DNA of 64,000 bases from Bigelowiella natans CCMP2755 (lineage: Eukaryota > Protista > Cercozoa): contig ADNK01000342.1 in the NCBI GenBank assembly GCA_000320545.1, positions 1 to 64,000 on the forward strand, given 5' to 3'. Positions 2,053-51,513 of this stretch are shown here, one piece after another (the stretch's first letter is position 1; the number at the start of each line of letters is the position of its first letter). The notes under the pieces were generated by a model. The model did not search any database, had not been told where the DNA came from, and saw only the letters and a program-made list of their open reading frames with translations. A program made the position numbers and the translations under genes.

Positions 2053-4287
2053 ATGGCATCGTTCACCCGCACCATTCCAAAACGATTTGCTCGCGCTATC
2101 TCCTCACCTGCTCTCCGAATAGGAGTCGGATTCGGCGTGACCGCTACCGCCGCATCGCTCGCAGGGAGTGCATTCGGATTTCCATCGTTTGCCCGTGGCG
2201 AGGAAACAAAGATTATCGTCGGGACTTACACACAAAAGCTAGGCCATGTCGACGGGAAAGGCCGAGGGCTTTACTCGTTTGATCTAGACCCGTATTCAGG
2301 TACTCGTCGCATCTTGTTTGGGGGATTATGAATTTGCGGTTGGAGATGGAAGTGTACGGCGGCGCTTTACATGTGAAAAGCAAGACATCAATGACAAAAC
2401 ACCCTTTCCTTTATCTTCTATCTCTCGCCTGCCTATCAGGAGCGCTTAATTTCGAGTCGACATTCAGTGACGCCGGTGAAAACCCCACATATCTTTGCCG
2501 AAACGGGGACATGCTCTACGTCGTCAATGAGCTGTATGAGGATGATGGCGATGTGACCGTTTATCGAATCGCTACGGACAAAGACTCAGGAAAGCTTACG
2601 CTGGAAAAGGGAAACTCCTGCTCAGCCCTCGGTGGTGGGACATGCCATGTCTCGACCACACCGAACCGGACGTTCGTCGCTGTCGCCAACTACGACGGTA
2701 GTTTCAAGTAAAGGGCGTCGTAGTTTCAAGTAAAGGGATGGGGCGAGATTGAGGAGGAATAACAATCACTACAAAATAGCACAAATGCATTTAAAACAAA
2801 CTGCCTCGACCCAAAAGATAAAGCGTTTTTGCACGATATTCTTATATGCCCCACGTTCACAGGAGGCGAGCGATCGGAGAAGAGAAGCGGCTCAAGCCTC
2901 GCTGTCTATCATCTTCATCCTGACGGAAGAATCGGTGACCTTGCTGCAGCTCTAACGCATAAGGGCAAAGGGACAAACGGAAATCCTGCTCGCCAGGGAG
3001 AACCACACGCTCACATGGCATACGTGGAAGCATGCGGGCCCGATCACAAGGACGGCTACGCGGTGCTCACGCCCGACCTCGGACTAGATCAGGTGTTGAT
3101 TAAGGGAAATCATGATGATGATGATGTGGTGATGATGATGACGCGTTGAAGTGTAATGTACATCGATACATTAACGTCTGTCCGTTCCCGCGTTGGCTCT
3201 CTCCTCCTCACCCCCCGAATTAATCAAGGTCAAGCAGTACTTTCTTTCTCCTAACGGGGTTCTGCTGCCACACCCTGGCCGCGAGTCTGTGTCGCATGCG
3301 GCGGGTTCTGGTCCGCGACACATGGTTATTCATCCGAGTGGAAAATTCGCATATGTTGCCGATGAGCTCACGAGCACCGTCTGTTTGCACAGGTTTGGTT
3401 TGTCCTTTCCCTACCCACCCTCTGTAAACACAGTCAATTAAAACTAACGTAACAGGGGAGAGCATACCATTCGTCATCCCACGCAACAGTTTCTATTCTC
3501 TCCTAATAAATACACGCGCGCGCGCGCGCGCACAAATTGCTTCAGCTACGATTCTGCCGTGGGGACCTTAGGGCCAATAGCGCAACGAATTTCCACCATC
3601 CCAGCTGGATTTGTAAGTCCACACCAATATATTATAAATATCTAATAATCTAGGAAGAAGAGGAAGAGAGGGGAGGGTATTATTAGGCAGTACACGTCAG
3701 CCATTATCTTTTAATGGCAAGCATTTCAGTGGCATCATGTGCATTAATGTCGTCCTTTATGGCTGGTTCTCCATTTGATCAGGTCGATGGCGAAGTGACA
3801 GACAAGGACACGAGCATTGCAGCAATCCGTGCTCACCCTTCGGTAGGTTGGCCTCAAGGATTTCAACAACCGTTTTTGAGGCCCTCTTCTTTGATTTGAC
3901 TGGCATGTGACATTTTCTTGCATCGAATAATGTGTTCACCATATTTATAACCCTTGCCCTATCAAGGGAAAATTCGTTTACGTCAGCAATCGCGTTGTGG
4001 GCGGTGAGGGAATCATCACGGTGTTCCGCGTGGAAGATGAGAGCGGAGAAGCATCCTCGCCATCTCACGGAGGCCGGCTTCAGGCTTCAAGTTACCACAA
4101 GACCGGCGGAGCTACTCCCCGCGATTTCACGCTACTTAAAGACAATGGTTCGCTGATGATTGTGGCCAACCAGGACTCTGATAACCTCGTCACGTTCAAG
4201 GTCAATGGAGAGACTGGCGCTCTGTTACCGACCGGTAAGGTCGCTCATTGCCCCTCGCCCGTCGCCATTGTATCTGTGCCGCAGTGA
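2053..4287 (+). CDS. pgl: 6-phosphogluconolactonase / cycloisomerase-2 family 7-bladed beta-propeller (YbhE/Pgl type), 7 exons, with N-terminal presequence
   Basis: Phase-consistent GT-AG exons 2053-2299, 2440-2697, 2863-3092, 3229-3392, 3546-3612, 3783-3842 and 3967-4287. Motifs include IVGTYT, NPTYL, VANYDGG, RQGEPHAH, PDLGLDQV, GSGPRHMVIHPSGKFAYVADEL, GKFVYVSNR, TPRDF and VANQDSDNL. Confidence 0.92.
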
Positions 4288-35500: not shown

Positions 35501-38500
35501 CTGCACCGTCTCCGATCTCTTGGGGCTGCAATTATGGGTGTTCCGACTTATTACTGCAAAATTGTTTAAGCCTTACACTCTGAACCCCCCCACAAATTAG
35601 AGTCTCAGGAGGAACGCTTAAGTCGAGAGCAAAGAGAGGAGTTTTATAAGGGACTTAGGAAAAACTACGGATACGAGGTTTCTAAGTTCTCAATTACCTA
35701 ATCATTCGTACTTTTTTGAGTTGTCCTACTCATGCATTGTATGTCGTCCCAGGTGTTGGAAATTCCTGGAGACGGAAATTGTCTGTTCCGAACTTTCGCC
35801 CATCAGATATATAATGACCAAGAAAAGTAATAGACTCTTCTTTGCTTAGGATGTAAGTAACAAGTTTTTTTCCTTCTTGCAGGCACATGGATGTTCGTAA
35901 GGAGTGCTGCGATTATCTGGAGAAGGAACAATCCACGTAAGTCCTCTACTACTGTTGCCAATGAGCGATATCATCCCAATATTTGTACAACTACAGATTC
36001 GCTGTCTTCATTCCCGAGGACTTAAAAACATATGTTGGGAAAATGCGGACCAAAAACCAGGTACTACAACGGGTTTGATGGTTGTTTAGTCTTCGATGTG
36101 ATCGTTTGGTATTCGTAGTGGGGTGGCCATGTGGAAATAGCTGTGATGCGAGAGCTCTACAATGTCAATGTGGAAATATATGAGAAGGAAAACATCCTAG
36201 AACCTAGACCCATTGGCGCAGCAGCGGTACGTACATAGCCAATTCATTCCAATCGTCGCCATACTCCTTCAACTAAACTATTGTTTTGTAACTTGGAAAT
36301 GTTTTGCTCGGTCTGAATCTTGTAATTGTCTGATTGGTCGCTAACACTTTGCTTTGCACCGATAAATTAGTCGAACGTAATAATCTAAATTGAGATGAAT
36401 GACTTATACCAAGCTCTGCTCAAGAATAGTACTTTTCTCTGATTTAAATTGTTGTTCCGTATACAGGCTAAGCTTCCCGTTGTGAAACTTGCTTACGAAG
36501 GGAAAAGGCATTACAACTCAATTGTAGATCCTAAAAGAGATTTTCCATTTGGAAACGGCAAAGATAGGGAGGTAAGACCGCAACAAGTAGATATGTTCCT
36601 TCGACTATATTTCATAGTTACTGCCCCCAGCTTTACGAAACGAAAATCCAGCGAATAATATTCAACATACAACAAAATCGATAATTAGGTGAATCTTCGT
36701 AAACTCCGTTTGTCAAGAGAAGGCAAGGAAACCAAAGTGAAGGTAATGCTTACTGTTTAAATTTGGAATTAGGGTAATATCGGTAAGGGTAGCATCGGAG
36801 TGAGCTATCATGGAACATAATTTTTCAGGAGCCGGCACCTAAGCCTATCGTGCGAAAATACTCGGTAATTGCCACAAATTCATCAATTTGTATCGCTTCT
36901 TCACGCTGACATTCCAGTATTTTCAACAGAAGGATACTCTCATGATGAAGAAAGGTCTGCAACGCCAAAACTTGCTCATATCAACATTGAAAACTTTCGC
37001 TTAGACCTTTTCTGACACACAAATCTAATATATTTTGGATGCGAGAAGAAAATACTTAAACTATTGAATAATCTGTAAAAACAGATGACCCTGCCTCAAA
37101 CCTCAATGAATATGACATGCAACGAGCAATTCAAGATTTCATGGATATGGTGAGACTGATGACGATTCGTTGCAGCTGGCCAAGATGACAAAATCAGCTG
37201 ATATAATGTTGTAATTCTACAATATTCTTCAGACGACTTTCGCCGTACCACTGGAAAAGGTAGCGCCGATGGTGAAGTCTATTCTAGAGAAGCTGTTCTT
37301 GAAGAAGGTTAGTTAATACTTTGCCATATTATCTTTGTCAGTTGTTATCGTGTCCACTACTAAGTATTCTTGATTTGCTTATTTGAACTGGATCTCTCAA
37401 ATAGAAAGCAGCCTACAAAGAGCATGAAGAATCTTTAGAGAAGTTGAAGTCAGACATGTTTTTCTCAAATACAATCAAAGAATTTGTTGACGCGCTAACG
37501 CGCTCAAACGAAATTAAGGACGGAGGGTGCGTAGTCCAGATTGCGTCATTTCATACACGACATTCTGATACTTATTTCTATAGGATTCAAGGCCATGGTT
37601 TGATTCAACAATTCCAGGAGAATTTGCTGCCAACTGTCATGTATGCAGCACCTTACGGTTTCAGACTGCAATTTGCTTCAATTGGTCTCAAATATATATA
37701 TATTTGTTGTACAGGTGGAGAATTCGCCAGTGTGTCAATAATATCTCTCCAGGAAAGGTACAAAGACTTGGCATCTGTTTTTCACTTTGTTGATTGATTC
37801 GCACCAATCGCTAGGACGATGGTAAGGAAGGCGGGAAAGGAAACAGTAAGGTGGAAAATAATACCAAAAGATTTTAAGTCCTAAATCCATTGTTTTCTAT
37901 ATCTTATGCTCGACGACATAACACAACGTTTTACACCTTCCAGAGACCAGAGGCGAAGGCTGTTCCCTCTTCGGCGGAGTCTGGAAACTCAGAACCCCCT
38001 GCGAAGGATAAGGTTCAGTTATCAGAATAAGGATAATAATGTTGCAGTCCCTAACATAAAACCACTCTTAAATTTAGAAAAGTGATAACTCAGAAACCCC
38101 TGCGAAAGATAAGGTTCGGTTATCAAAATAACGACAATGTTGCAGTCCTTAACATAAAACCACTCTTAAACTTAGAAAAGTGATACTCCGCCAGTCCAGG
38201 AATCCTTGGAATCATTAACTCCAAAGCAGGTTAATACCTTTTTGGTCCAGAAAGGGCTCGAAAAGGAACTTGCAGATAAGATGGAGGAGATGGAAATTGA
38301 TGGCAAAATTCTTAAAGAGCTCTGCTTGAAAGACCTACTGGACACTGGGATGACACTTGGTCGGGCAAAGACGATAATGAGGACAGTTGATTCTCTCAAA
38401 AATAATTCAGGTACTTATCAAATTTTGGATTATGAGAACCTACGTGCATCTTGGTCTCCTAATACTTAATTACAATCGCCAGAAAATAACAACGCATCTC

Positions 38501-38583: not shown

Positions 38584-38983
38584 GAAAGGCCTACTAGCGA
38601 AAACGATGTAGCAGTAGCGCGACCTGAACCTTAATCCCCAGATTCAATAAAACTCCTTGTGGACTCCATAATTAGTCTGCTACACTGCTGCGGGAAAAAT
38701 TCTGTCATAGCTAGATGGGCAAATTGTGTCTTTTTGAACATGCACTGAATTCATGGCATCATCCGTTAAATTGCACAAAAAAGGGCAGGCCAGTTCATTG
38801 GTGAACGCATGCATGAACTGCACATGCAACTCCTTCAGCACTGCATAAATGAACATGCCATGCAATGTATTTAACAGAGACCCAGACGTGTTGTGTAATT
38901 GCAGGTCAAGCAACTAGCTAGCTAGCTAGAGATGCCAATGACACGCGACTGGCTCCAAAGCTCTGGAGCCACTAGCTAGCTAG

Positions 38984-40140
38984 ACATGATAGACATGCAA
39001 TACACAATATATATAATATATGACAAACGCTGCAGCCGCAGCTTTGCAGCTTTATTGCCACATGTTGGGTAGACACCACGTAATACTACATACATTTACA
39101 TGAGACAGATGCAATGAAATGTTTAAATTTTTTCAATGGTCATCCTGATGTAGCTGTGCAAAGCAGCGGCTACAGCGCTCAAATTGAATCTGTTTGTTTC
39201 CTTGGTCACATGTTGCATGCATGAAAATGCATTGTGATCATGTGATTTGGTCTAGCATGTCGTGCTTTGCGCGCAGCTTTGCGAGTCAATTTTTCTGCGG
39301 TTGTGAGACGCGTAGTTTCATCGTTGCGATCCATGATCGCCGTCAGTTGTTTGTTGATTCTGAGTCTCTGTGGTCCGCATTTCCTGCATTGCAGAATGTG
39401 GTCCATGTCTTGCAATGTGTTGCATGTGTCGCACATTGCTTCCAATTCGATTCTGTGCGTTGTCCTCTGGACAGCAAGAAAGTTCCAAGTGAGGTTGCCA
39501 ACACCACAGATGGCGCGCATCCATGATGTGGCAACACTTGGCAGCTTCAATGTGATTCCTGTTGTGCGAGAGCCAGGCATGAAACCAAGTTTCTTCAAAT
39601 GCATGGCCTTTGTTCCCTCTTGGCACCAGTTCATTTTGAAGTTAGGTGCAGCGGTCTGCATGATCATTTTGCTGTGCATGTTCAATTTCTTTTTCAGTGT
39701 CTTGCTTGTGGCACGTGTTGTGGGGTGTTCCGCTCCAAGCCATTTGGTTGTGATGTGTGCACATGTACACACATGTGAGACGGATGTGATGAAATGTTCA
39801 AATTGTTTCAATGGTCATCCTAATGTAGCTGTGCAATGCAGCGGCTACAGCGCTTAAATTGCATCCATTTGTTTCCTTGGTCACATGGCGCATGCATGAA
39901 AATGCATCCTGTTTTGGTCTAGCATGGCGCGCTTAGCGCGCCATGCTTCCCGACTTGTTTGCTCTGCGATTGTGAGACGCGTGGTCTCATCATTGCGATC
40001 CATGATCGCTGTCAGTTGTTTGTTGATTCTGAGTCGCTGTGGTCCGTATTTCCTGCAATGTGAGACGCGTGGTCTCATCATTGCGATCCATGATCGCTGT
40101 CAGTTGTTTGTTGATTCTGAGTCGCTGTGGTCCGTATTTC

Positions 40141-40187
<47 letters not shown>

Positions 40188-40354
40188 GTATAGCTCCATT
40201 GCACAGCTACATTACCATGACCATTGACAAAAATTGAATATTTCATTACATCCGGCTTCATGTCTATAGTCTATTATACTACATGATCAACCACATTTTC
40301 ATGTCTGCCGCTGGAACATGATAGACATGCAATACACTATATATATATTATGAC
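38984..40354 (-). mobile_element. Composite of 5'-truncated LINE 3' fragments (tandem and inverted copies) bounded by a ~40-bp imperfect direct repeat
   Basis: ORF 39206-39811(-) contains the CCHC knuckle CDTCNTLQDMDHILQCRK(C/Y)GPQR. Copy A spans ~39100-39760 and copy B ~39776-40055. An exact 85-bp duplicate lies at 40059-40143 and an inverted copy at 40185-40262. The direct repeat acatgatagacatgcaatacac.atatatat..(t)atgac occurs at 38984-39024 and 40316-40354. Confidence 0.8.
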
Positions 40355-40588
40355 CCTTTATTTAGGTGAGCGAGAGCTTACAGTGCAGTGGCAAAAATAT
40401 CAGCTTCACATTGCTCTAGTCTAGTGGTGCTAGAGCTACACATCGCTTTATCAGTCGGGATGCACATTAAGGCATATGATTTAATTCGATTTCTACATGT
40501 TCATAATTGACAAAGAACTTAAAATACATCACACGCACAGCAATTGTGTACAAACGCTTATCGATTCAACAAAGCCATGCTTGAGAAT

Positions 40589-41314
40589 CTATAATGTTGA
40601 TGAGGATTTAGCATCCTGCTCAATGGCCTTCAAACATTCTTTTGCGCACATATCTTCGTCCGTTGTGTCAATCTGTGCGATTGCACCCAATCCTCGATCA
40701 CGATATCGCAAATCGTACCTACATTGAGGGGCGAGCATCGTCGGACAAAGTCAAATATGTCTCAGATTAAAAGCCCCCATCCATATTGGAAAAACCAAAC
40801 CATTACCACTGTTCGATGAGGAGTCTTGTGAGCTCTCTTTCCCTCCCTACCAAACGATATTTTTAGAATACTTAGAATACTTCATTATAACGGATATTCC
40901 CCTCACATGAGGTGCTTAGCAGTTGGGACACTTGTTGGCGTCTCTACTACCTTGACGAAGCATGTTTACGAACGCATCTTTATTGCTGCCTCTCATCACG
41001 CGCTCTAGATGCGGAAGGGCCTTTTCCAACTGCCTCACACAAAACAAATAATGGAATTCGGAATAGGCAATAGAACAGCTGCTTCTTTCATATGGCAAAA
41101 TGATAGCGTGGCTGGAGTTGGGAGAGGCTACGCATACCTCCTGGCGATGGATATCATCTCTAAGATACTCCTCGCAAAGTCGAGTCACGCGCACCTGATC
41201 GGAAGGTGTGAATGACTGTCAGGATGATGATAGCGTCGGCATCTAGAATGAAAAACAACACAAATGTTCACGGGACAAACCACGCACATACTACCGCGCG
41301 TACAATATAACGTG

Positions 41315-41355
<41 letters not shown>

Positions 41356-42407
41356 TCATGTGTGTGTTATTTATGTGTATTGCTACTATTACTACTACTA
41401 CTTCTACCACCTCCATCGGAGCTACAAGATCTATACGTGTTGCATTTATCAGGTTCTCCCAAACCTACGCAGGAGGAGGACTTGTGAACGTCAATACGAT
41501 AGAAAGCCATTACAACTTTCCCGACACAGAAATACTTTTAGGGAAACAGGCCGGCGAAAGGATTCAGAGACAGTGGAGACGGACTACAGGCAGAAGGGAT
41601 AGCGGTTGCACAATGCTCAGTATGGTTGCTACTACCGCAGGAGGAATGATGCTGTTCCCGACTTTACGACTTTCGCTCTCCACAACAGCATAGCCTGCAT
41701 TATCATCACATCATCATCATTATCATCATCAATTTATCATGAGAAGGATCGTCCATGAGACGGAAACGCGTAAATATGATTGAGCTGCTATGAATCGAGA
41801 GGGGACACAAAAGCTGGTTGATGGCAGCGCACACGATGCGGTGTCAGAATTCGGCAAATACCGTTAGGAAAGCCGTTATGAAGGCGGCACAACAGTTCTG
41901 ACTCAAATGCCTTCTGGCTTGTAGGCTGCAGTCTGAGAGCAACAAAGCAGCGTTAGAAATGCACAGCAGCGGTCCACTAGGCATGCAATTATGACGTAGC
42001 CTATTGTTAACTGCAAGCACTGCTACCCAACGTGGCCGAGAAGAGAGCTTCTGTGGCCAGCAATGCCCTCAAGATCGATCTTATGGATGGAGTACGATCA
42101 TATGGGGGGTGATAGGATGCAGAGGAAAACAGAGCAGCTCTGTCAGAAAGAAGAACAAACAGTGATGGGGGCCGAACGATGCTCTCTGAAGGATTAGGCT
42201 AGCAGAGGACGTATACCGTGGAATCGCCTTGCATGGCTTCGATCCGATTCAGAATTCTGCCAAACAGTAGACGATTATTAGTCAAAACAGCATATAAATG
42301 CTCTTCGTGTCGGGCACTTGTAATAGACTAGCGGCTGTTTGCGTCTTTCTTGCTTAAGGGTGATACGTGGTGACTATGGAGGGTAGACCACATGGGATCG
42401 TGTTTTG

Positions 42408-42457
<50 letters not shown>

Positions 42458-45384
42458 CTCTCTGGTGATCTTGTATCAGTACCTTGTTTTCCCAACTCCG
42501 GTCATTCCACTTAACACGTAGACCCGCGATGGCAGCAAACTAATGATTGTTTTCGTGAAAAGTTTCATCAGTGTTTGTTTCTTTTACCTTCCGTTAAAGA
42601 GTAGGAAATGGCAAAAGACAGGAAGAAGGCTACACCGTGCTATGCTCTCATTGGAAGCCAAGGTATCTCGTACCGACCTGCAAAAAGGGAGGGGGGGGGA
42701 GAAGGAGTGTGTCTTCAAACCGATGGTTGTCACATCTGTGTAAAGACGAATTCCCTGCTACAGCTTGCTGCTCATGTAATACAATTACTACAACTGCTAA
42801 CAACAATAACAATAACTATAATTAAAATAAATACTTTCTGATGGCTTTATAGCCCCCTTTGATGACCCAGATGCGTTCCCAGCCCAATCGACGCAGTAGA
42901 GCGCCAACCGACTGAGCAAAGCACCATTCGAAGGAAGGAGGGGGGGAGGGAGGAGCTTACGTAGTGCTCACAGTTTATGGTGTGAACTAACAACTCACCT
43001 GACTGCGCTTTCCTCCTCTCGCGCAGTATAGTATCAAATCACCTGCCTTTTGTATCGGAACGGCAGGGAAAAACACGGGTCCATTACAAACAGGGTTGTT
43101 TGCGCACATGCATTTGGCCGTATTTGTGGGGGGGGGGGGGGGGAATATATGACGCAAAGCTTTCCTTTCCTCTGCTATGATACCATCGTATAGTGTAATT
43201 TTAAATCGCGTGCTGGTATTACTCTACGACACCGATACCTTGGGAATGCTGTCGTTTTCCTGGACTTCCAGCCGCACCGAGTGCAGCTGGCGGGGAAGGG
43301 CAACGGCGAACGATATAAAAGAATTGACGGATATAAAGAATTAGCGGGTGGACGTGACGACGGAGAAGGAGAGGAAACGGGGAGTTGTGAAAAGAGCAGT
43401 AGTGGTAGCAGTAGTAGTAGTAGTACCTGTGTCGCGACTTCAGAGAATACTGATGACAAGGTTTGTTCGCCTACGATGGTGGATTCTAACATTACCCAAG
43501 ACCGTGATAATAGCTCCCAATGGCGGCAGGCAGCAAAGGCAGCAGCTATGTTGATACCCTCTGCTATTATATACGTTTGGTGGTGTGTGTGTGTGTGCGG
43601 AGATATCATCAGGTGCGGTTTTACCAGTCGATGGGGAACGGTCAGCAACCCCACGAATAGACTCGACGAGTTCCTGTGAGGAAGGAGACCGTGAGAGGGG
43701 GGGAAGGTGATGAGGAGGAGAAGGTTAAAGAATAATAGCATAGCATAGATCAAACCACAAGGTTGGATGAAACCAAGCGGTTTATTACCGATATTCGTTT
43801 TTCTACAAATTCGAGTCCCTTCTCCAGAGCATCTGTGGTATGTGCGGTGGTTGGGGAAGAATTAAACGACATTTGAATGATACGAAGTGACTATATACGT
43901 ATCCGTGCATATGTATAAGACCGTCTGGAGAAATTTGTTTGTACAGCGTCCCCACGATAGCTCTTTCGTCGTTGTCCAACAGAGGGACATTTATGGCTCC
44001 TGGGAGATGATCCTATTTATGGTGTGAGGTGCAATAAACGATTATGAGGAAGAAGGGGAACATGAGGAGAGAGGTCAAAAAGCGAAGACTTACTATCATC
44101 AACCACGGATATCAAAATTATTGATTACATATTGATTCTTTCAATAATACAGCTTCCCCTTTTTATAATGGTTTACCCTGTACCCTCTCCCCCCCCTGCA
44201 ACAGTGGCAAATACGACGACAAGTAGTACCTCTTCATATTCCACGGGAGATCTAAGATCAATCTGTCATTTGTGTTATGGAGACGAATAGTATCAACTTA
44301 ACAATTGGTTGTGGTAATGATATTGGCGTTTAATGAACAGTGCCTGACCACTTTTGCTCCATTGGAAGAGACGAAATCGATGTTTTCAGCTAAGCATCCA
44401 GGAATCACGGACCAAGATTCTGTACGAAATTGTGATGACGAAGGCGATTCTTGGGCGCTACTCTTGAGAGATGAGGCGGTCTCAACAGCATAACATCTAT
44501 GGTGTGCCTTCTTCCGATGTATTTTTCCTATCTCATATCTGCGTTTTGCTGATGATGACGATGATGTCGAATAGGAGGAAAATACTGGCTGAGGTAAGAT
44601 GCGAGCGCGGCGAAACTGCGCTCGTCTTACTGCTCCAAATCTCGCACCTGTGGAGGGAAAGTTCTTTATATGTGGGGTCTTCGAGAAGTAACTAAACGAG
44701 AAAATAAACGTAAAATGCTAGTGCATCTTTGGAAAAGTAGGGTACTCTTCTCTACGTTTCTGGGGAGCTGAAGTCACACTTTCATCTCTTAAACATGCCC
44801 ATACTCTCCGCTTCCATTTTATTTCAGTCAGCCATCTCTCTTTCCGCACATATATCCACTAAAACAACTCTCAATCCTTGTTTATTCCGCATCAACACCC
44901 TCCATCGTAAGTCTACCTGCTCGTAATGCCGCAAAACTCGGCGTGGCAGCTGCAATAATGGATGCTGCAAACATAATCCAATGCATACGAGGGACCCTTT
45001 TAGATTATTCCCTGAGAATAATTGGGCCCGGGGGGAAGGAGGAAGGGGAGAAGGGGGGGGGGGGGAGGTGGGAAGGTCGCGGATCGGATATCGATTGTTG
45101 TATTTTGAGGATTATGGGCGAAGTGATTCCAAATGAAAATCCCCTCTGTTTGTGCCCTTCAATCAACAAATCCCCTCTGTTTGTGTCCTACGACAATCAA
45201 CAAATCTTGCCGGACGACAGAACCACATCCTGCATCTATGGGGGTTCGCTTCCGTCGGTAGTCTTGCCGTTCAGGATGGCTCAGCGGCTGAGAGGTTTGA
45301 GACGGCATCATACACATCGATGAGTCAGTTCAGTGCTGAATGATTTTGCCTAGTAGGTTCATGTGGGGGAAGAGGAAGCGAGTG

Positions 45385-45426
<42 letters not shown>

Positions 45427-45727
45427 TGAGGAAAACAGAGAGCACAAGAAGATGCAATGAATTCCGAAGTTTTGTGATAACTCATTTGCAGACGGTGAAG
45501 AGTCTGTCAGCAAAATGAGAAAGCGATTGCAGGTGCGACACGCTTCTGTAACTGATTTTGCTGCCGCTGACATTAATACTTCCATGTATCCAGCCAACGC
45601 CTAAGGGTGAACGCGGAAGCTCTTCCCCTCCACAAATCTCACGAGGTGTATCTGCCCCGGTGCCTAGTACAGCAACATCTACAATGGAAGATTCTAAGAT
45701 AAGATCTGGACTAGTCAAGTATGTCAT
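40589..45727 (-). CDS. selU: tRNA 2-selenouridine/geranyl-2-thiouridine synthase (rhodanese domain plus P-loop), spliced, with N-terminal extension; 5' end uncertain (about 45000-45727)
   Basis: Ordered exons: IDLRSPVEYEE|GHLPGAINVPLLDNDERAIVGTLYKQ (~43920-44262), ILYCARGGKRS (43002-43034), WVIKGGYKAIR, VYVLSGMTGVGKTR (~42483-42525), IDLEGIAGHRSSLLG, QPTSQKAFESEL, VVESESRKVG..IP, RVTRLCEEY and LLIEQW|YDLRY. All match MnmH/YbbB motifs. Stop at 40589-40591. Confidence 0.92.
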
Positions 45728-45802
45728 TTAAACTGATAACCTAATATGATTCTAAGTAAAGATAAAATGAGGTCACCTCATATATTGACTGTATTGGGAA
45801 GG

Positions 45803-48034
45803 ATGAAAAAAGCAGACATTAAGATGTTCCAGCGTTGGATCCGCTGCTTTTGCATTGTTGATTTTGATCTCGATCTTGGCCAAAAGGTATTAAACGACGA
45901 TATGTGCAAAATATATACGAGTGATCGGGGATTGGTCAAACGACTCGAACGCAAAACATTTAACTAAATGATAACACTAGATGAGGAGCATATTTCCTTC
46001 CAACCCGGCAAGACATAAGTTGTCCCGCGAAGAGATCGCTGCCATTACAAGCCTTTCGTTCCCAGATTCAAATTGTACAAAACTTGGAGACCAGGTTGCG
46101 CTTCTTGTCGGTGTTTCTCAGCGTCTTACGACCTAATCTTAGTGACTTAAAATCGTGTTAAGGTGTACTGTTTCCGCTTCCAATCCCGTAAGCATTCTAC
46201 ACGCAAAGGGGGGAAAACGTCCATTCCCCCGAAACGCCCCCCTTCTTCGCCCCCCCCGACTGAGCAACTTCCGGAGACGGCTCCGAGAGAAACAGGGGGT
46301 GGTAAAGATGCCGTCTCGGGGACGACTCAAAGCATGACGGAAAGCAAAACACAGAGTCCAGAAGATGCTAAGAATGATAGTAGTAGTAATGATAGCAATC
46401 ATAAAGAGCAGGCACTTCTTTCAAAAGTCAATAAGGTCAGAACAATTGGTACGCAAGTACATGTGTGTGTGTGTGTGCACATCCACACTCTTCAACTCTC
46501 AAAACCTGAGTTTCCTCTCCCCTTTCCCCCCCCTCCAAATTCAGCGAAATTCATTGATGAATATCCCAACAATGATGTTTGGATACGTCTTCTTCCGGCA
46601 AAGAGCGGACTCATCGATTCGTAGGGGGTTAGGATCAAAAAATTGTCAAATTAGAAGAAACTTCAAAAGAATACTCTGACATTCGTAAATGATTGCCTTT
46701 TTGCGAACGCACTCTAGTTGTGTCATTGTGTGTTCCATGTTGTCAATATTTCCCCAAAACCAAACTATTTTTTAGAAGTTTTGAAGGCAAACTCTATGCC
46801 AGCTTCTGCGACTCTCGAACGATAGTTAGTGACCTCCTACTAATAGCAGCTCTCAACTCTCAGGTTTTTGCAGAAAAGCGTCGTGGTGATAAGTCCGTAT
46901 GCCTTCACAGACCTTTTCCAAAAGGTGTATTGCATTGAAAGGAGCAAGAGAGAGAGAGAGAGTGAGAGAGAACTATGATGATGATGAGAAATAGTAGGAA
47001 GTGAAGGATAGTAACTGGAGAAAGATACGGAAAAAGAAAAAAGTCTCTTTTTTAACTCTGTCATTTACTTTTCTTCCTCCGTTTAAACACGATTCAGATC
47101 ATCAGCATCGTTGGGAGCATGTACTTTTCCGTGGGCAACGCTTGCATAGAGGTGCCGAGCACACGAAGAACAAAAATAATGCTCAGGCCGTCGTCGGATG
47201 CCTCATCTATCAAATTCCAAGGAGAATGATGCATCTTGTACCTAGTCGTTCTGTCTTTTCATTCAGCCGTTGATGATGATGAAAAACCGATGATCATGAT
47301 TGCCACCACTGCTACTTCTACCAGGCTGCATGCCAGAATATATCTCAGTGGCCTCGATTGCGCTCCGGGGTCGAAGTTCAGCTTCCATTGCTAGGGAGTG
47401 TTATCAATTTCTCTGCACCGAGGCTACCGAGGTAAATACCGAATTATTCACTCAAACACAAGCGAAAATCTTTCTTCTTTTCTCTGAATTCTATTTTGAG
47501 TTGGCATCAACCGCGTGTGCACACACACACAAAGTTCCCGAAGATGGGTTAATTCTGTTCCCTGTGCTCCAAAGAGACTAGCACGATGATGATGATGCTT
47601 CATCAAGAACATGCAGTGTTTCATAACATGTTCTTCCGATTATTACCATCATCGTCAATTTATTTCGGCCAACTATCGTAAGCGTTTGGGTTTTCTGGAA
47701 ATGTTTGCACATTCCATGCTGCTCACGCTTAAGCATATTTCCTCTGCACTACCAAAAAAGATCGGATGCCTTATTCTTCCGTATGATGGTGGGAGTTAGG
47801 TAACACACAAACACTGCCGATTTTGAGATATTTCGACGGAAAAGTCGATACACGATTTCAATACTACAAATTAGCACTGAAGGATGAGAACAAATCCAGA
47901 ACCAAAATACAATTTCCAAAAACAACCGCCCTGGACTAGAAACTAGCATTTATTTCTTGTCTGTTTGTCTGATATCACTATGATGATGATTAAAGGGAGA
48001 AAGGAAGCACCGTCTCTACCGCTCTTTCTTCGAG

Positions 48035-48067
<33 letters not shown>

Positions 48068-48971
48068 TAGAAGTAGCATTAGTAATAGCTTCATATTATA
48101 TGATCGATGATATATCTGGTACTACTTCTTAGGCAACTTCTTAGTAACCCTTCCAGTTTGATGGGATGGTTTGTCCAAAAAGACCTGTAAGTTATTATAA
48201 CGAATCCAACAACATCAATGCACCTCAATCACTCTCCTAATTTTGATTTCCCCTCTCATCATCTTCTTTTTTTTCTCTTTCTTCTCCTCCTCTCCCTCCC
48301 CCTCTCTCTCTTGGTCGATCGCTCTACTTTCTTATCCGAGAGAAATGACGAAGAAGATGAAGAAGGAGAAGAAAAAATAGAAAGAGAAATCTCTCATAAC
48401 AGCGTGGCAGTGTTTTTGATTGTTAATATTGCTGTTGGTAGATACTCGAGCTTGTTCTTCGTCATCCATCATCTATGGCATTTCTGGGAAATCATCATAA
48501 CAGGGAAACCGCTATTGGTTGGTGCTGCTCTTTGCTTATTTTCACCTCTGCTGTGCCCTCTAAGTGTTACTGCTACGATCGCATCATAATTCATCATCGT
48601 TGTTCAAACATGTATGTGTTTGTACACATGACTGACTGACTGCATCATGTACTTTCTTCACTTCTGCGAAGGAAATGCGATCGATCGATCGTGATATCTT
48701 CATTCCAACTTCACAGCTGTTGTCAGTGCGGTTATTTCTATCTCTTCTGCTCTCACCGATTTTGAACGTATCTTCTTCGGTAGGTATTTGGCAGCTCGCC
48801 ATCGCGTGTGAGCAAAGTCGTTCTATCCATTGTTTCACTCATCTCGCCGCTGACGTACATGGGGGATTTCCGGCCATACTTCTCAATCTATGATAACTCT
48901 CTGCCGCACTTCCAGGCGTTGCATGATGTACGCGTGCACAACATTTATAAACATATAAGTATATTTTGTGC

Positions 48972-49002
<31 letters not shown>

Positions 49003-50337
49003 TGTGTGTGTATTATATGTATAGTTGTGTCTTTGTGAATTTTGGTCGTCGTCATCTTCGTCCTTGGTGCGATGTATGGCTGCTGAGGCACTCAAAAATA
49101 AAGCAGAGGCTTGTTTCCTTCACCCTTTGAATAGTATACGTGCATCGTCAATGCCGTATCTTCCTGCGTAGTTTATATGTGTTGTTTATGTTGCCTATGT
49201 GTTTAGGCCAAGCCAGAAGTTTTACCTGCGTTAGTCCTCGGCGTGACCAATCCATTCCTGCTTAAAACCTTCCAAAACTTTCCAAATGTTCTCTCTCTCG
49301 GTCGGGCACACGCACACACACACACATACACACACACACACACAACACAATTAGAGTAACAAGAATGAGGAGCAGTAGTATGATGTGATTTGTGCGTTTT
49401 CTTTGCTTTCCTTCGGTTTAGGCGAAGAACTCATAGTGAGGACGAGCAAACCTCCACTTCCTCATGGCAACAACACCCAAATAGCCCGAAACATGAGCAA
49501 TCATAGCCATGATGGAAAGCAACACGGAAATGCGCCAGCAGGAGGGTCAACGATGGCGAATGGCGCATCATCTGTCCTTAGGAAGCCCCACCCCATATAC
49601 TCCTCTCAACATCAAAACGCAGAAGGAGGAGGAGGAGGAGGAAAGAATACGTGGGGGGGGGGGGGGGGAGAACAGAGAGCAGCAAGCAAAAGGGCCTCTC
49701 GCCATCTTCATCATCATCTTCTTCCTCTTCTTCTTCTTGGTTATTCGTGAATCAATCGACGAAAGCTGTTCCTTCCAAGTTGAAGGTGTTTCCGTCTCTC
49801 AAAGCAGCTAAAATAGACATGGTAGAGCCCTCCACAGGCCCCACCACCTTTGTTAGGTACTACTACTGCAACTTCCCTTCCTCGCCTCTCTCATCGGCAC
49901 ATCCCGCATGTATGCCTGCATGCATTTATTATCTTAGCGCTCATCGCCGGCTCCTCCTCCTCCTCCTCCTCCTCCTCCTCCTCCTCCTCCTACTACTACT
50001 ACTACTACTACGACGACGATGACGTCAACGAATACTACTGACAATAATTTTAACCGCATGATCCCGTTTTAAGCTTCTCCCTCGATACGAATCTTTCATG
50101 CTGATGGTGCCTTTGCTGCTGCCATTCTATGTTGCCGTTTGTTGTCGCAGCAACGTCTCGCCCACGTTCTGTGCGGACAAAGCGACTCTACAAAGGCTGC
50201 TCAGTCCCAGTGCTAGTGGGGGGGGGGGGAAGGATATGAAGGACGTAGATGATCCTGTATGTGTTTACGATGATAGAATGAGTAGTATATAGTAGTAGTC
50301 GCAGTAGTAGTAGTAGTAGTAGTTGTTGTTGTTGTTC

Positions 50338-50374
<37 letters not shown>

Positions 50375-51513
50375 GTTCAAACCTCCATTGCACGCTGTGC
50401 TGCCTCTATCCATATCGCACACAAACATCTACTACCACAAATTTATCCAGGAGGAAGCCCGACTGCAGATCAACGCAATGGTCTTGCGCAAGCACTTTTA
50501 CCAGCTGACACAGCTCTTCCTCATGCCCTTCGATCAGTACTTTGAATTTGAAACCGAGGGAAATCTCCACCTCGGGCCTGAATGGAATCCGTACTTCGCT
50601 CTGCCATACCTGCCACCGTTCAAGGAGCAAGCGTTTCTCAAGGGCGTTCGAAAGCACGTAGATCACTTTCCGATGAAAGGCCTACTGAAGATGCAACGGA
50701 GGGCGCGTATCGTGCAGCTATATCGACGCTTTCTTAAGTCTCCCAACTTTATTCCCTGGTTCAACAATCAGAGGGATATAGGAAAGGTAATGGCAACGAT
50801 GAAAAAATCAAGACAACGACGATGATGATGATGATGATGATGGTGATGATGACGATGAAGGGAAGGTATTAGTTAGGAGCACAAAAAGAGAACGGGCAGG
50901 TGTATACCACCCATGAAACAGCTTCCTTATCATTATTGCTGGCAACAAGGCGTACATAGTGCTGCTGGTTTAGTATGGCCCCCTCGACGATGTCTTGTTC
51001 CTCAGTGTAGGATGGATGGATGGATGATGATGATGATGATGATGATGCTTTTTTTAGGTAAGATTACGGCAGCACATGCGGTCTCGATTGGTCGGACTGC
51101 GTGGGGAGCTGTTCCTACGCCTTGTGTGTCACGTGTCTATAAGAAGTACCAAGATGATCCGAACACGAGCGCAGAGATTCCTTGGTCAAGCGATTTAAAG
51201 GAAGAGGAGGGGAGGGGAGGAGGAGGGGGGGGGGGGGGGATTGTGAACGGGAGAAGTAGGGAGGGAAGGCTCAACTGGGTAGAAATCTTTCCTGTGATAT
51301 AAGCATTTTCAGACGTTTTTGCCTTCGTTGTATTCGTCTTATATTTCTATTCAACTCGCTCATTAATAATACAACAATTATGCAGATACGGTGGTGGCAA
51401 GACCGACCCTAGATGTCGAGCTAAAGGAAGCTATTGAAGATCACCTGAGGACGTTGGATTCCCTGCTACCACCTCCAAAGAAGGCTCCCCACCCACCCAA
51501 AAACCAGAGCTAA
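45803..51513 (+). CDS. DENND6: DENN domain protein DENND6/FAM116-like (Rab GEF)
   Basis: FQRWIRCFCIVDFDLDLGQK, LSFPDSNCTKLGDQ|VYCFRF, FGYVFFRQRADSSIRRG, LWHFWEIIITGKPLLV, LGVTNPF, LRKHFYQLTQLFLMPF and LYRRFLKSPNFIPWF. Stop at 51511-51513. Confidence 0.9.

What the first reader, a model, noticed from the sequence alone, without database searches (positions are those of the whole stretch)
40589..45727. Intron-containing eukaryotic tRNA 2-selenouridine synthase (SelU/MnmH)
Seen: all MnmH motifs in order across about 16 or more exons, including the rhodanese loop YCARGGKRS and Walker A GMTGVGKT. Known: SelU geranylates wobble 2-thiouridine and converts it to 2-selenouridine using selenophosphate, and is characterised from bacteria and some archaea. 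Spliceosomal introns rule out bacterial contamination. Inference: this eukaryote may make geranylated or selenated tRNA, possibly in an organelle, after HGT or endosymbiotic transfer.
Basis: partly seen in the sequence, partly recalled or inferred. Interest (0 to 1): 0.78.

Follow-up and report, generated by a model that had tools for sequence, protein, structure and literature searches.

The report
Planctomycete-derived selenouridine synthase in an alga
A marine alga has an intact, spliced and expressed nuclear gene for the enzyme bacteria use to put selenium or a geranyl group on tRNA; it likely came from a planctomycete bacterium and its product is predicted to enter the plastid or mitochondrion, which would make selenium-modified organelle tRNA directly testable.

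Summary
Real, with corrected limits. The minus strand holds a 21-exon gene (20 GT-AG introns), CDS 44986-40589, 494 aa. The spliced length equals a 1643-nt transcript contig exactly. The locus matches a Bigelowiella natans JGI model that skips the catalytic-Cys exon and the leader. The E. coli/Salmonella residues C97, G67, A63, R129 and K155 are kept; orthologues pass the TIGR03167 cut-off. Orthologues occur in Amorphochlora, Norrisiella and one MMETSP record. They group with planctomycete MnmH (100/98) and share a ~35-residue insert; an alphaproteobacterial origin is rejected (AU p=0.0007). No named cyanobacterial or green-algal row was in the tree. The leader is hydrophobic then Arg-rich, so plastid import is likeliest; mitochondrial or dual import stays open. 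Activity, location and an organellar selenophosphate supply are untested. Eukaryotic SelU-like genes are already in databases, and this scan noted them four times on other DNA; I found no paper on them. New here: the corrected model and a separate planctomycete origin.

The parts
40589..44986 (-). CDS of MnmH/SelU, 494 aa, 21 exons
   Evidence: open frame ATG to TAG, no internal stop
44917..45053 (-). exon 1: 5' UTR and aa 1-23, the hydrophobic signal-peptide-like stretch (ATG 44986, second ATG 44974); one contig extends to 45072
   Evidence: contig pieces in X1 and X5; 21 uncharged residues, best 11-residue hydropathy 2.4
44349..44647 (-). exon 2: aa 24-123, Arg/Ser-rich transit-like peptide and start of the folded domain
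   Evidence: contig pieces; aa 21-60 hold 10 R/K and 0 D/E
44230..44262 (-). exon 3: rhodanese first strand
   Evidence: inferred from contig coordinates and GT-AG sites; same residues in the JGI model
43922..44012 (-). exon 4: rhodanese and SelU-specific insertion
   Evidence: contig piece in X5
43789..43832 (-). exon 5: helix with A166 and G170 (A63, G67 of E. coli)
   Evidence: borders inferred
43625..43673 (-). exon 6: start of the clade-specific extra segment
   Evidence: 3' joint listed
43427..43470 (-). exon 7: clade-specific extra segment
   Evidence: 5' joint listed; 3' border inferred
43239..43286 (-). exon 8: end of the clade-specific extra segment
   Evidence: 3' joint listed
42999..43046 (-). 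exon 9: catalytic loop, Cys234 = E. coli Cys97 (motif 43028-43002); skipped by the JGI model
   Evidence: both joints listed in X1 and X5
42835..42911 (-). exon 10: end of rhodanese domain, R267 = R129
   Evidence: both joints listed
42636..42677 (-). exon 11: linker
   Evidence: both joints listed
42483..42539 (-). exon 12: Walker A (42508-42485), K299 = K155
   Evidence: both joints listed
42217..42256 (-). exon 13
   Evidence: both joints listed
42027..42079 (-). exon 14: conserved P-loop-domain motif
   Evidence: both joints listed
41862..41932 (-). exon 15
   Evidence: 5' joint listed; 3' border from a loose end in three runs
41636..41694 (-). exon 16: conserved ESR motif
   Evidence: contig pieces and 3' joint
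41411..41464 (-). exon 17
   Evidence: 5' joint listed; 3' border from contig coordinates
41138..41194 (-). exon 18
   Evidence: contig pieces and 3' joint
40951..41029 (-). exon 19
   Evidence: both joints listed in X1, X5, X14
40807..40846 (-). exon 20
   Evidence: both joints listed in X1, X5, X14
40498..40718 (-). exon 21: C-terminus, stop at 40591-40589, 3' UTR (one contig runs past 40400)
45482..45727 (+).
   Evidence: plus-strand GT..AG joints 45292-45490, 45529-45591, 45718-45802

Best explanation
This is an intact, spliced and expressed nuclear gene for a two-domain tRNA 2-selenouridine synthase (MnmH/SelU), likely acquired from a planctomycete bacterium by an ancestor of chlorarachniophyte algae, whose product is predicted to be imported into an organelle (plastid most likely) and would there modify wobble 2-thiouridine of tRNA-Lys, -Glu and -Gln. 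Shown: the gene structure, the transcript, the conserved catalytic residues, the leader's composition and the tree position. Inferred step 1: the hydrophobic N-terminus plus Arg-rich peptide routes the protein; my odds are plastid 0.45, mitochondrion 0.25, both 0.2, elsewhere 0.1. Inferred step 2, by analogy with Salmonella/E. coli: the P-loop domain (K299) and rhodanese domain transfer geranyl from geranyl diphosphate to the 2-thio group. Inferred step 3: Cys234 then allows exchange of the geranylthio group for selenium from selenophosphate. Step 3 needs selenophosphate in that compartment, which I could not check.
For: Transcript contigs match the 21-exon model to the base. C97, G67, A63, R129, K155 and the Walker A glycines are kept in the model and in P0002, P0121 and P0010; PMC4830565 passages make C97 essential for selenation and K155 for geranylation. 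TIGR03167 cut-off 219.75 is passed by P0001 (234.7), P0002 (274.3), P0121 (263.1), P0010 (239). The predicted structure of orthologue P0002 is confident from about residue 81 on (mean pLDDT 86.2) and matches a SelU-like rhodanese domain (3g5j) and P-loop kinases. Orthologues at 59-68% identity in Amorphochlora, Norrisiella and one MMETSP record show long retention. Tree: 4 chlorarachniophyte rows 99/96, plus P0010 100/99, plus 11 planctomycete rows 100/98; still 96 with the insert columns dropped. Motif-to-Cys spacing is 74-79 in the four eukaryotic rows scored, 73-86 in 70 of 71 scored genome loci (80 examined) and 40-46 in 48 of 54 scored other rows (70 examined). 20 of 20 planctomycete genomes tested carry SelD. 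B. natans has 23 selenoprotein genes (PMC7539508 passage). Plastid leaders of this group are a signal peptide plus a positively charged transit peptide (PMC3542566, PMC8132391 passages).
Against: No targeting predictor was available. The hydrophobic stretch is short in two orthologues (11 and 10 residues) and absent in the sister protein P0010, whose leader looks mitochondrial. No selenophosphate synthetase lies in the window and no genome was held to look for an organelle-targeted one. No named cyanobacterial or green-algal SelU was in the tree, and the organism behind P0010 is unknown, so passage through the green endosymbiont is not excluded. Rejection of planctomycete monophyly without the eukaryotes is modest (p=0.026) and the groups were named after I saw the tree. 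The planctomycete sample was fetched with a query built from that clade. The gene did not turn up in one B. natans expression table, which was cut when stored.
Confidence: 0.5

Rival explanations
1. Geranyl-only enzyme: the protein is imported into an organelle that has geranyl diphosphate but no selenophosphate, so S-geranyl-2-thiouridine would be the end product.
For: Geranylation does not need C97 and is a separate activity (PMC4830565). No organellar selenophosphate synthetase was found or could be sought. The clade's extra ~35 residues sit next to the segment where Salmonella mutations raise geranylation.
Against: The catalytic Cys is kept in the model and in the three full-length eukaryotic relatives aligned. 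The bacterial relatives with the same insert carry SelD in 20 of 20 genomes. The alga is selenoprotein-rich.
Confidence: 0.2
2. Repurposed enzyme: after transfer the protein took another organellar job, such as sulfur or selenium transfer, or RNA binding without modification.
For: Only 32% identity to E. coli SelU over 287 aligned residues, a long stem branch of 0.55 and no characterised member of the planctomycete-type subfamily in my searches.
Against: Both domains and every tested functional residue are kept; family cut-offs are passed; no domain was lost or added apart from the leader.
Confidence: 0.12
3. The enzyme acts on eukaryotic-type tRNA in the periplastid compartment or the cytosol rather than on organelle-encoded tRNA.
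For: Periplastid proteins also use bipartite leaders and are hard to tell from plastid ones (PMC3542566). Bacterial MnmH also geranylates s2U lacking the C5 side chain (PMC4830565 table).
Against: aa 21-60 hold no acidic residue, which fits the positively charged plastid type; a cytosolic enzyme would need no 100-residue leader.
Confidence: 0.08
4. Origin rival (compatible with the same function): the planctomycete-type gene entered a green alga first and reached the host nucleus with the plastid endosymbiont.
For: A sister eukaryote-like protein, P0010, of unknown organism branches with the chlorarachniophytes; green algae hold SelU-like proteins.
Against: No named green-algal protein appeared among the 120 best hits, and the best-scoring rows of the profile search that I could name were chlorarachniophyte or planctomycete (20 ids looked up, most unnamed).
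Confidence: 0.25
5. Artefact: bacterial contamination or a pseudogene.
For: The public gene model lacks the catalytic Cys.
Against: That exon is present in DNA and spliced in at both ends; 20 GT-AG introns, an open 494-codon frame and orthologues in other genera.
Confidence: 0.01

Closest known systems
tRNA 2-selenouridine(34) synthase MnmH/SelU/YbbB of E. coli and Salmonella (TIGR03167, NF008750)
   Same: Rhodanese plus P-loop architecture; C97, A63, G67, R129 and K155 equivalents kept; 32% identity over 287 residues.
   Different: Nuclear, 20 introns, about 100-residue N-terminal leader, ~35 extra residues before the catalytic Cys; activity untested.
MnmH of a Planctomycetota clade that includes Rohdeia mirabilis Pla163 and Saltatorellus ferox Poly30 (L051, L053)
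   Same: Nearest bacterial relatives, 39-45% identity for the ten best loci; same extra segment; sister group in the tree.
   Different: No leader, no introns; SelD is in the same genome (20 of 20) but not within the flanks (up to 4 kb) of any of 80 loci. I found no experimental study of them.
Other eukaryotic SelU-like proteins (ESM Atlas cluster, 66 members, 92% Eukaryota, commonest Chlorophyta; leader-bearing P0282)
   Same: Same two Pfam domains; P0282 also has an organelle-type leader.
   Different: P0282 lacks the extra segment and groups with Ruegeria-type proteins; one clade with the chlorarachniophyte proteins is rejected (p=2e-5). Atlas cluster sequences could not be retrieved.
Archaeal bipartite SelU (TIGR04568/TIGR04569)
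   Same: Weak matches to both halves (44.6 and 44.7 bits).
   Different: Far below the cut-offs of 200 and 180; here one fused chain.
Dual-targeted HisRS and GlyRS of chlorarachniophytes
   Same: Nuclear tRNA-handling enzymes serving plastid and mitochondrion (PMC4494062 passages): a precedent for the import step.
   Different: Those use alternative starts; here the second ATG is only 4 codons downstream and the orthologues P0002 and P0121 have no second Met in the leader.

Membership tests
MnmH/SelU | N-terminal rhodanese domain with catalytic Cys (C97-x-x-G) | tested here: met
   Cys234 in an RNA-confirmed exon; PF00581 above cut-off in P0001, P0002, P0121, P0010
MnmH/SelU | SelU-specific 33-36 residue insertion in the rhodanese domain with conserved A63 and G67 | tested here: met
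   A166 and G170 align; feature defined in PMC4830565
MnmH/SelU | C-terminal P-loop domain with Walker A Lys (K155) | tested here: met
   K299; P-loop kinase fold matches for the orthologue model
MnmH/SelU | Score above the curated TIGR03167 cut-off (219.75) | tested here: met
   P0001, the truncated model of this locus, 234.7; orthologues 274.3 and 263.1. The corrected 494-aa model itself was not scanned. P0001 misses the NF008750 cut-off (236.6 against 241); P0002 and P0121 pass it
MnmH/SelU | Selenophosphate synthetase in the same genome | tested here: inconclusive
   None in the window; no genome held; implied by 23 selenoprotein genes
MnmH/SelU | Selenophosphate and 2-thiouridine tRNA substrate in the same compartment | not testable with these tools
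   Organelle genomes and proteome were not available; substrate presence rests on recalled knowledge of organelle tRNA
MnmH/SelU | Geranylation and selenation of s2U34 tRNA | not testable with these tools
   Needs an assay
Chlorarachniophyte bipartite plastid leader | N-terminal hydrophobic signal peptide | tested here: inconclusive
   21 uncharged residues, hydropathy 2.4 here; 11 and 10 residues in orthologues; absent in P0010; no predictor available
Chlorarachniophyte bipartite plastid leader | Positively charged transit-like peptide | tested here: met
   10 R/K and 0 D/E in aa 21-60; the same make-up also fits a mitochondrial presequence
Eukaryotic selenoprotein U (SELENOU, also abbreviated SelU) | In-frame UGA selenocysteine codon in a non-rhodanese protein | tested here: not met
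   No internal stop in the CDS; domains are rhodanese and P-loop. A clash of names only

The most novel reading that the evidence does not exclude
Chlorarachniophytes run a selenium- or geranyl-uridine pathway inside their secondary plastid and/or mitochondrion with an enzyme taken from marine planctomycetes, independently of other algae that took SelU from other bacteria. Eukaryotes would then have recruited this 'prokaryotic' tRNA modification several times, tying organelle translation (and plastid tRNA-Glu, the tetrapyrrole precursor) to selenium supply and naming an enzyme for the old, unexplained reports of selenium in algal tRNA.
Probability: 0.35. Interest if true: 0.75.

Novelty: new variant of a known kind. 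Interest (0 to 1): 0.52.

Why it matters
The comparative papers I read treat the selenouridine trait as prokaryotic (PMC4561486, PMC2398784, PMC1273633 passages), yet selenium-containing tRNA was reported long ago in Chlamydomonas, plants and mammalian cells without the site being located (PMC7216251 passage). An intact, expressed, leader-bearing SelU in a cultured alga, with an orthologue in the transformable Amorphochlora amoebiformis, turns that into a direct test. The public model of this gene lacks the catalytic Cys and the leader, so surveys would read it as dead or untargeted. The planctomycete origin, separate from at least one other leader-bearing SelU, suggests repeated recruitment. 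The enzyme family itself is well known and eukaryotic copies are not rare, which caps the surprise.

Tried and rejected
The JGI model's structure (exon 9 skipped, longer exons 7, 11 and 12, other start): contradicted by listed joints. Whole-genome search for SelD, MnmA, MnmE/G: no genome held. No run was on record as RNA among the indexed holders; spliced contigs were used instead, and the one raw-read RNA run X21 gave 100 laid reads, mostly at the 3' end, with one read each over introns 19 and 20, so it says little on strand or level. Finding the organism of P0010: one metagenome scan found nothing, a second gave 7 unnamed loci that I did not annotate, cluster look-ups gave no name, the Atlas gave only family clusters. 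A search for long eukaryotic SelU used the profile length, so only proteins of 721 aa or more were searched; it returned 2 frameshifted-looking proteins. An R-x-Y/F motif resembling a mitochondrial processing site (recalled) is present in all 4 leaders, but arises in 16-34% of shuffles of each and the leaders are related, so I give it little weight. A recalled SelD motif scan found 0 of 80 loci; repeated with tblastn and 6 positive controls, again 0 of 80. Clustering of neighbours of planctomycete mnmH timed out and was not repeated. The 103-row tree finished only as a quick tree; the careful tree used 49 of those 103 rows, chosen by me, and the 103 came from 319 candidates thinned by identity plus 21 fixed rows. 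Supplements of PMC3542566, PMC7883536 and PMC7539508 could not be read; they may list this gene, its predicted location or the alga's selenophosphate synthetase. No complex prediction was run.
Full report
OBSERVATION. Six-frame reading of the minus strand shows MnmH-like fragments in order between about 45000 and 40589. Laying four public runs on 40000-46600 gave spliced contigs in X1 and X5 (kind 'RNA?', a guess by the tool; the joints themselves show spliced RNA). One search listed 15 joints, 9 of them CT..AC (minus-strand introns) and 6 GT..AG; 8 more were not displayed. One search listed 4 joints in X1, X5 and X14, 3 of them new. So 12 of 20 introns are listed directly. I placed the other 8 from contig piece coordinates, a loose end and GT-AG sites. 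The 21 exons then sum to 1643 nt, the length of the X5 contig; 12 of 17 anchors map exactly and 5 lie in splice overhangs. The frame is open for 494 codons from ATG 44986 to TAG ending at 40589, with an in-frame stop upstream. Run X20 covers introns unspliced at depth about 3, as DNA would.

CORRECTIONS. Searching with exon 2 retrieved one protein, P0001, labelled by its sources as Bigelowiella natans JGI model 128083. It is this locus, but it starts elsewhere, skips exon 9 (the catalytic Cys) and lengthens three exons; the listed joints contradict it.

IDENTITY. Even truncated, P0001 passes the TIGR03167 cut-off (234.7 against 219.75) and narrowly misses NF008750; full-length orthologues pass both. 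Against E. coli SelU (fetched) the model is 32% identical over 287 residues and keeps C97 (C234), A63, G67, R129, K155 (K299) and the DLE, HR and ESR motifs; L66, R79 and A82 differ, as they do among the bacterial rows. PMC4830565 (passages) makes C97 essential for selenation and K155 for geranylation. An AlphaFold model of orthologue P0002 from a 90-row alignment is confident from about residue 81 on and of low confidence before about residue 66. Its best solved matches are the rhodanese domain 3g5j and P-loop nucleotide kinases; no full-length relative is solved.

DISTRIBUTION AND ORIGIN. The closest hits are an MMETSP protein (P0002, 63% to the model), Amorphochlora amoebiformis (P0121, 59%), Norrisiella sphaerica (P0145, partial, 68%) and an unnamed leader-bearing cluster (P0010, 44%), then bacterial proteins up to 45%. 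A genome scan with an alignment of this neighbourhood kept 80 of 359 loci; 74 record titles name Planctomycetota or a subgroup, 4 an unnamed bacterium, 2 other taxa (the query was biased to this clade). The careful tree of 49 rows gives chlorarachniophytes 99/96, with P0010 100/99, with 11 planctomycete rows 100/98, inside further planctomycete rows 97/92. The 103-row quick tree agrees, and dropping the insert columns leaves support at 96. Independently, the distance from a conserved Gly to the catalytic Cys is 74-79 in the eukaryotic clade, 73-86 in 70 of 71 scored loci and 40-46 in 48 of 54 scored other rows; five of the six exceptions fall inside the planctomycete-containing clade and one (P0221, 103) does not. 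AU tests reject a clade with the other leader-bearing protein P0282 (p=2.2e-5), a clade with the Ruegeria-type group (p=0.00067) and, weakly, planctomycete monophyly without the eukaryotes (p=0.026); the groups were named after seeing the tree. No named cyanobacterial or green-algal sequence was available, so plastid-linked routes are tested only indirectly. 20 of 20 planctomycete genomes checked have SelD over the cut-off, each with one in-frame TGA, none within the 80 mnmH loci.

TARGETING. Residues 1-21 are uncharged (best 11-residue hydropathy 2.4), aa 21-60 hold 10 R/K and no D/E, and intron 1 falls after residue 23. P0002 and P0121 have the same plan with shorter hydrophobic runs (11, 10); P0010 has only the Arg-rich part. 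Chlorarachniophyte plastid proteins carry a signal peptide plus a positively charged transit peptide, and mitochondrial ones need no signal peptide (PMC3542566, PMC8132391, PMC6523293 passages); HisRS and GlyRS are dual-targeted (PMC4494062 passages). I read this as plastid 0.45, mitochondrion 0.25, both 0.2, other 0.1. This is a judgement from composition, not a predictor result.

MECHANISM. Shown: gene, transcript, residues, leader make-up, tree position. Inferred from the bacterial enzyme (PMC4830565, PMC7694415 passages): import, binding of 2-thiouridine tRNA-Lys/Glu/Gln, geranylation, then selenation. That organelle tRNAs here carry 2-thiouridine and that plastids make geranyl diphosphate is recalled knowledge. 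B. natans has 23 selenoprotein genes (PMC7539508 passage), so it makes selenophosphate, but its compartment is unknown; a geranyl-only end point is the main rival.

LITERATURE AND NOVELTY. Six searches bore on prior description (25 of 38, 1 of 1, 2 of 2, 2 of 3, 20 of 17,716 and 20 of 42 listed). I saw listings for all and passages of PMC4561486 (plus supplement hits, 2 files not searched), PMC2398784, PMC1273633, PMC7694415, PMC7216251, PMC7539508 and PMC13578239; none described a nuclear eukaryotic SelU gene. Against full novelty: PMC7694415 assigns mnm5se2U to eukaryotes too, and PMC7216251 says YbbB orthologues were identified in mammals, citing a paper whose title concerns an activity in bovine liver, which I did not read. 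The library lacks most subscription journals. Eukaryotic SelU-like proteins are in databases (66-member cluster, 92% Eukaryota), and this scan noted such genes in four other genomes (unchecked notes). A look-up by this sequence found no look-alike earlier finding.

VERDICT. A genuine member of MnmH/SelU on every sequence feature tested, in a eukaryotic, intron-rich, leader-bearing form of probable planctomycete origin: a new variant of a known kind. Interest 0.52: the family is known and eukaryotic copies are not rare, but the function in eukaryotes appears undescribed, the public model hides the active site, and the test is simple.

Noticed in passing
window 45216-50825, + strand: Head-to-head neighbour, spliced in X1 and X5, probable ATG at 45276. 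Its motifs resemble DENND6/FAM116 Rab exchange factors (recalled); Pfam on three fragments did not confirm this, and the 3' extent is my guess.
   Followed up: partly
window 41030-41137 (intron 18): The only intron that is both a multiple of 3 and stop-free in frame. X1 holds an unspliced contig across it at depth 17.8 beside the spliced form at 46.4: possible retention adding 36 residues; not seen in X5 or X14.
   Followed up: partly
P0010 / P0142-P0144 (unnamed, contigs up to 105 kb): Sister to the chlorarachniophyte proteins, with an Arg-rich leader and no hydrophobic stretch; its organism would date the transfer and point to the original organelle.
   Followed up: partly
P0282 (JGI, unnamed): A second SelU with a mitochondrial-looking leader that groups with Ruegeria-type proteins: a probable independent eukaryotic acquisition.
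   Followed up: partly
P0277 (Logan, 717 aa): MnmH fused to a C-terminal domain that looks like Sua5/TsaC threonylcarbamoyl-AMP synthase (recalled motif, not scanned).
   Followed up: no
window 38975-40351: Repeat element just downstream of the gene: direct repeats about 670 bases apart (85-90% alike) and 65-nt inverted arms; part of it matches abundant contigs. Possibly a small transposon remnant.
   Followed up: partly
window 2283-4287, + strand: Intron-split lactonase (PF10282 above cut-off in two ORFs).
   Followed up: partly
window 38176-38469, + strand: Weak SAM domain match (PF00536, 20.1 bits, below cut-off).
   Followed up: no
window 40719 and 40848: A few X21 reads continue across these exon junctions with letters that resemble but differ from the next exon: a diverged strain, relative or paralogue may be in that run.
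   Followed up: no
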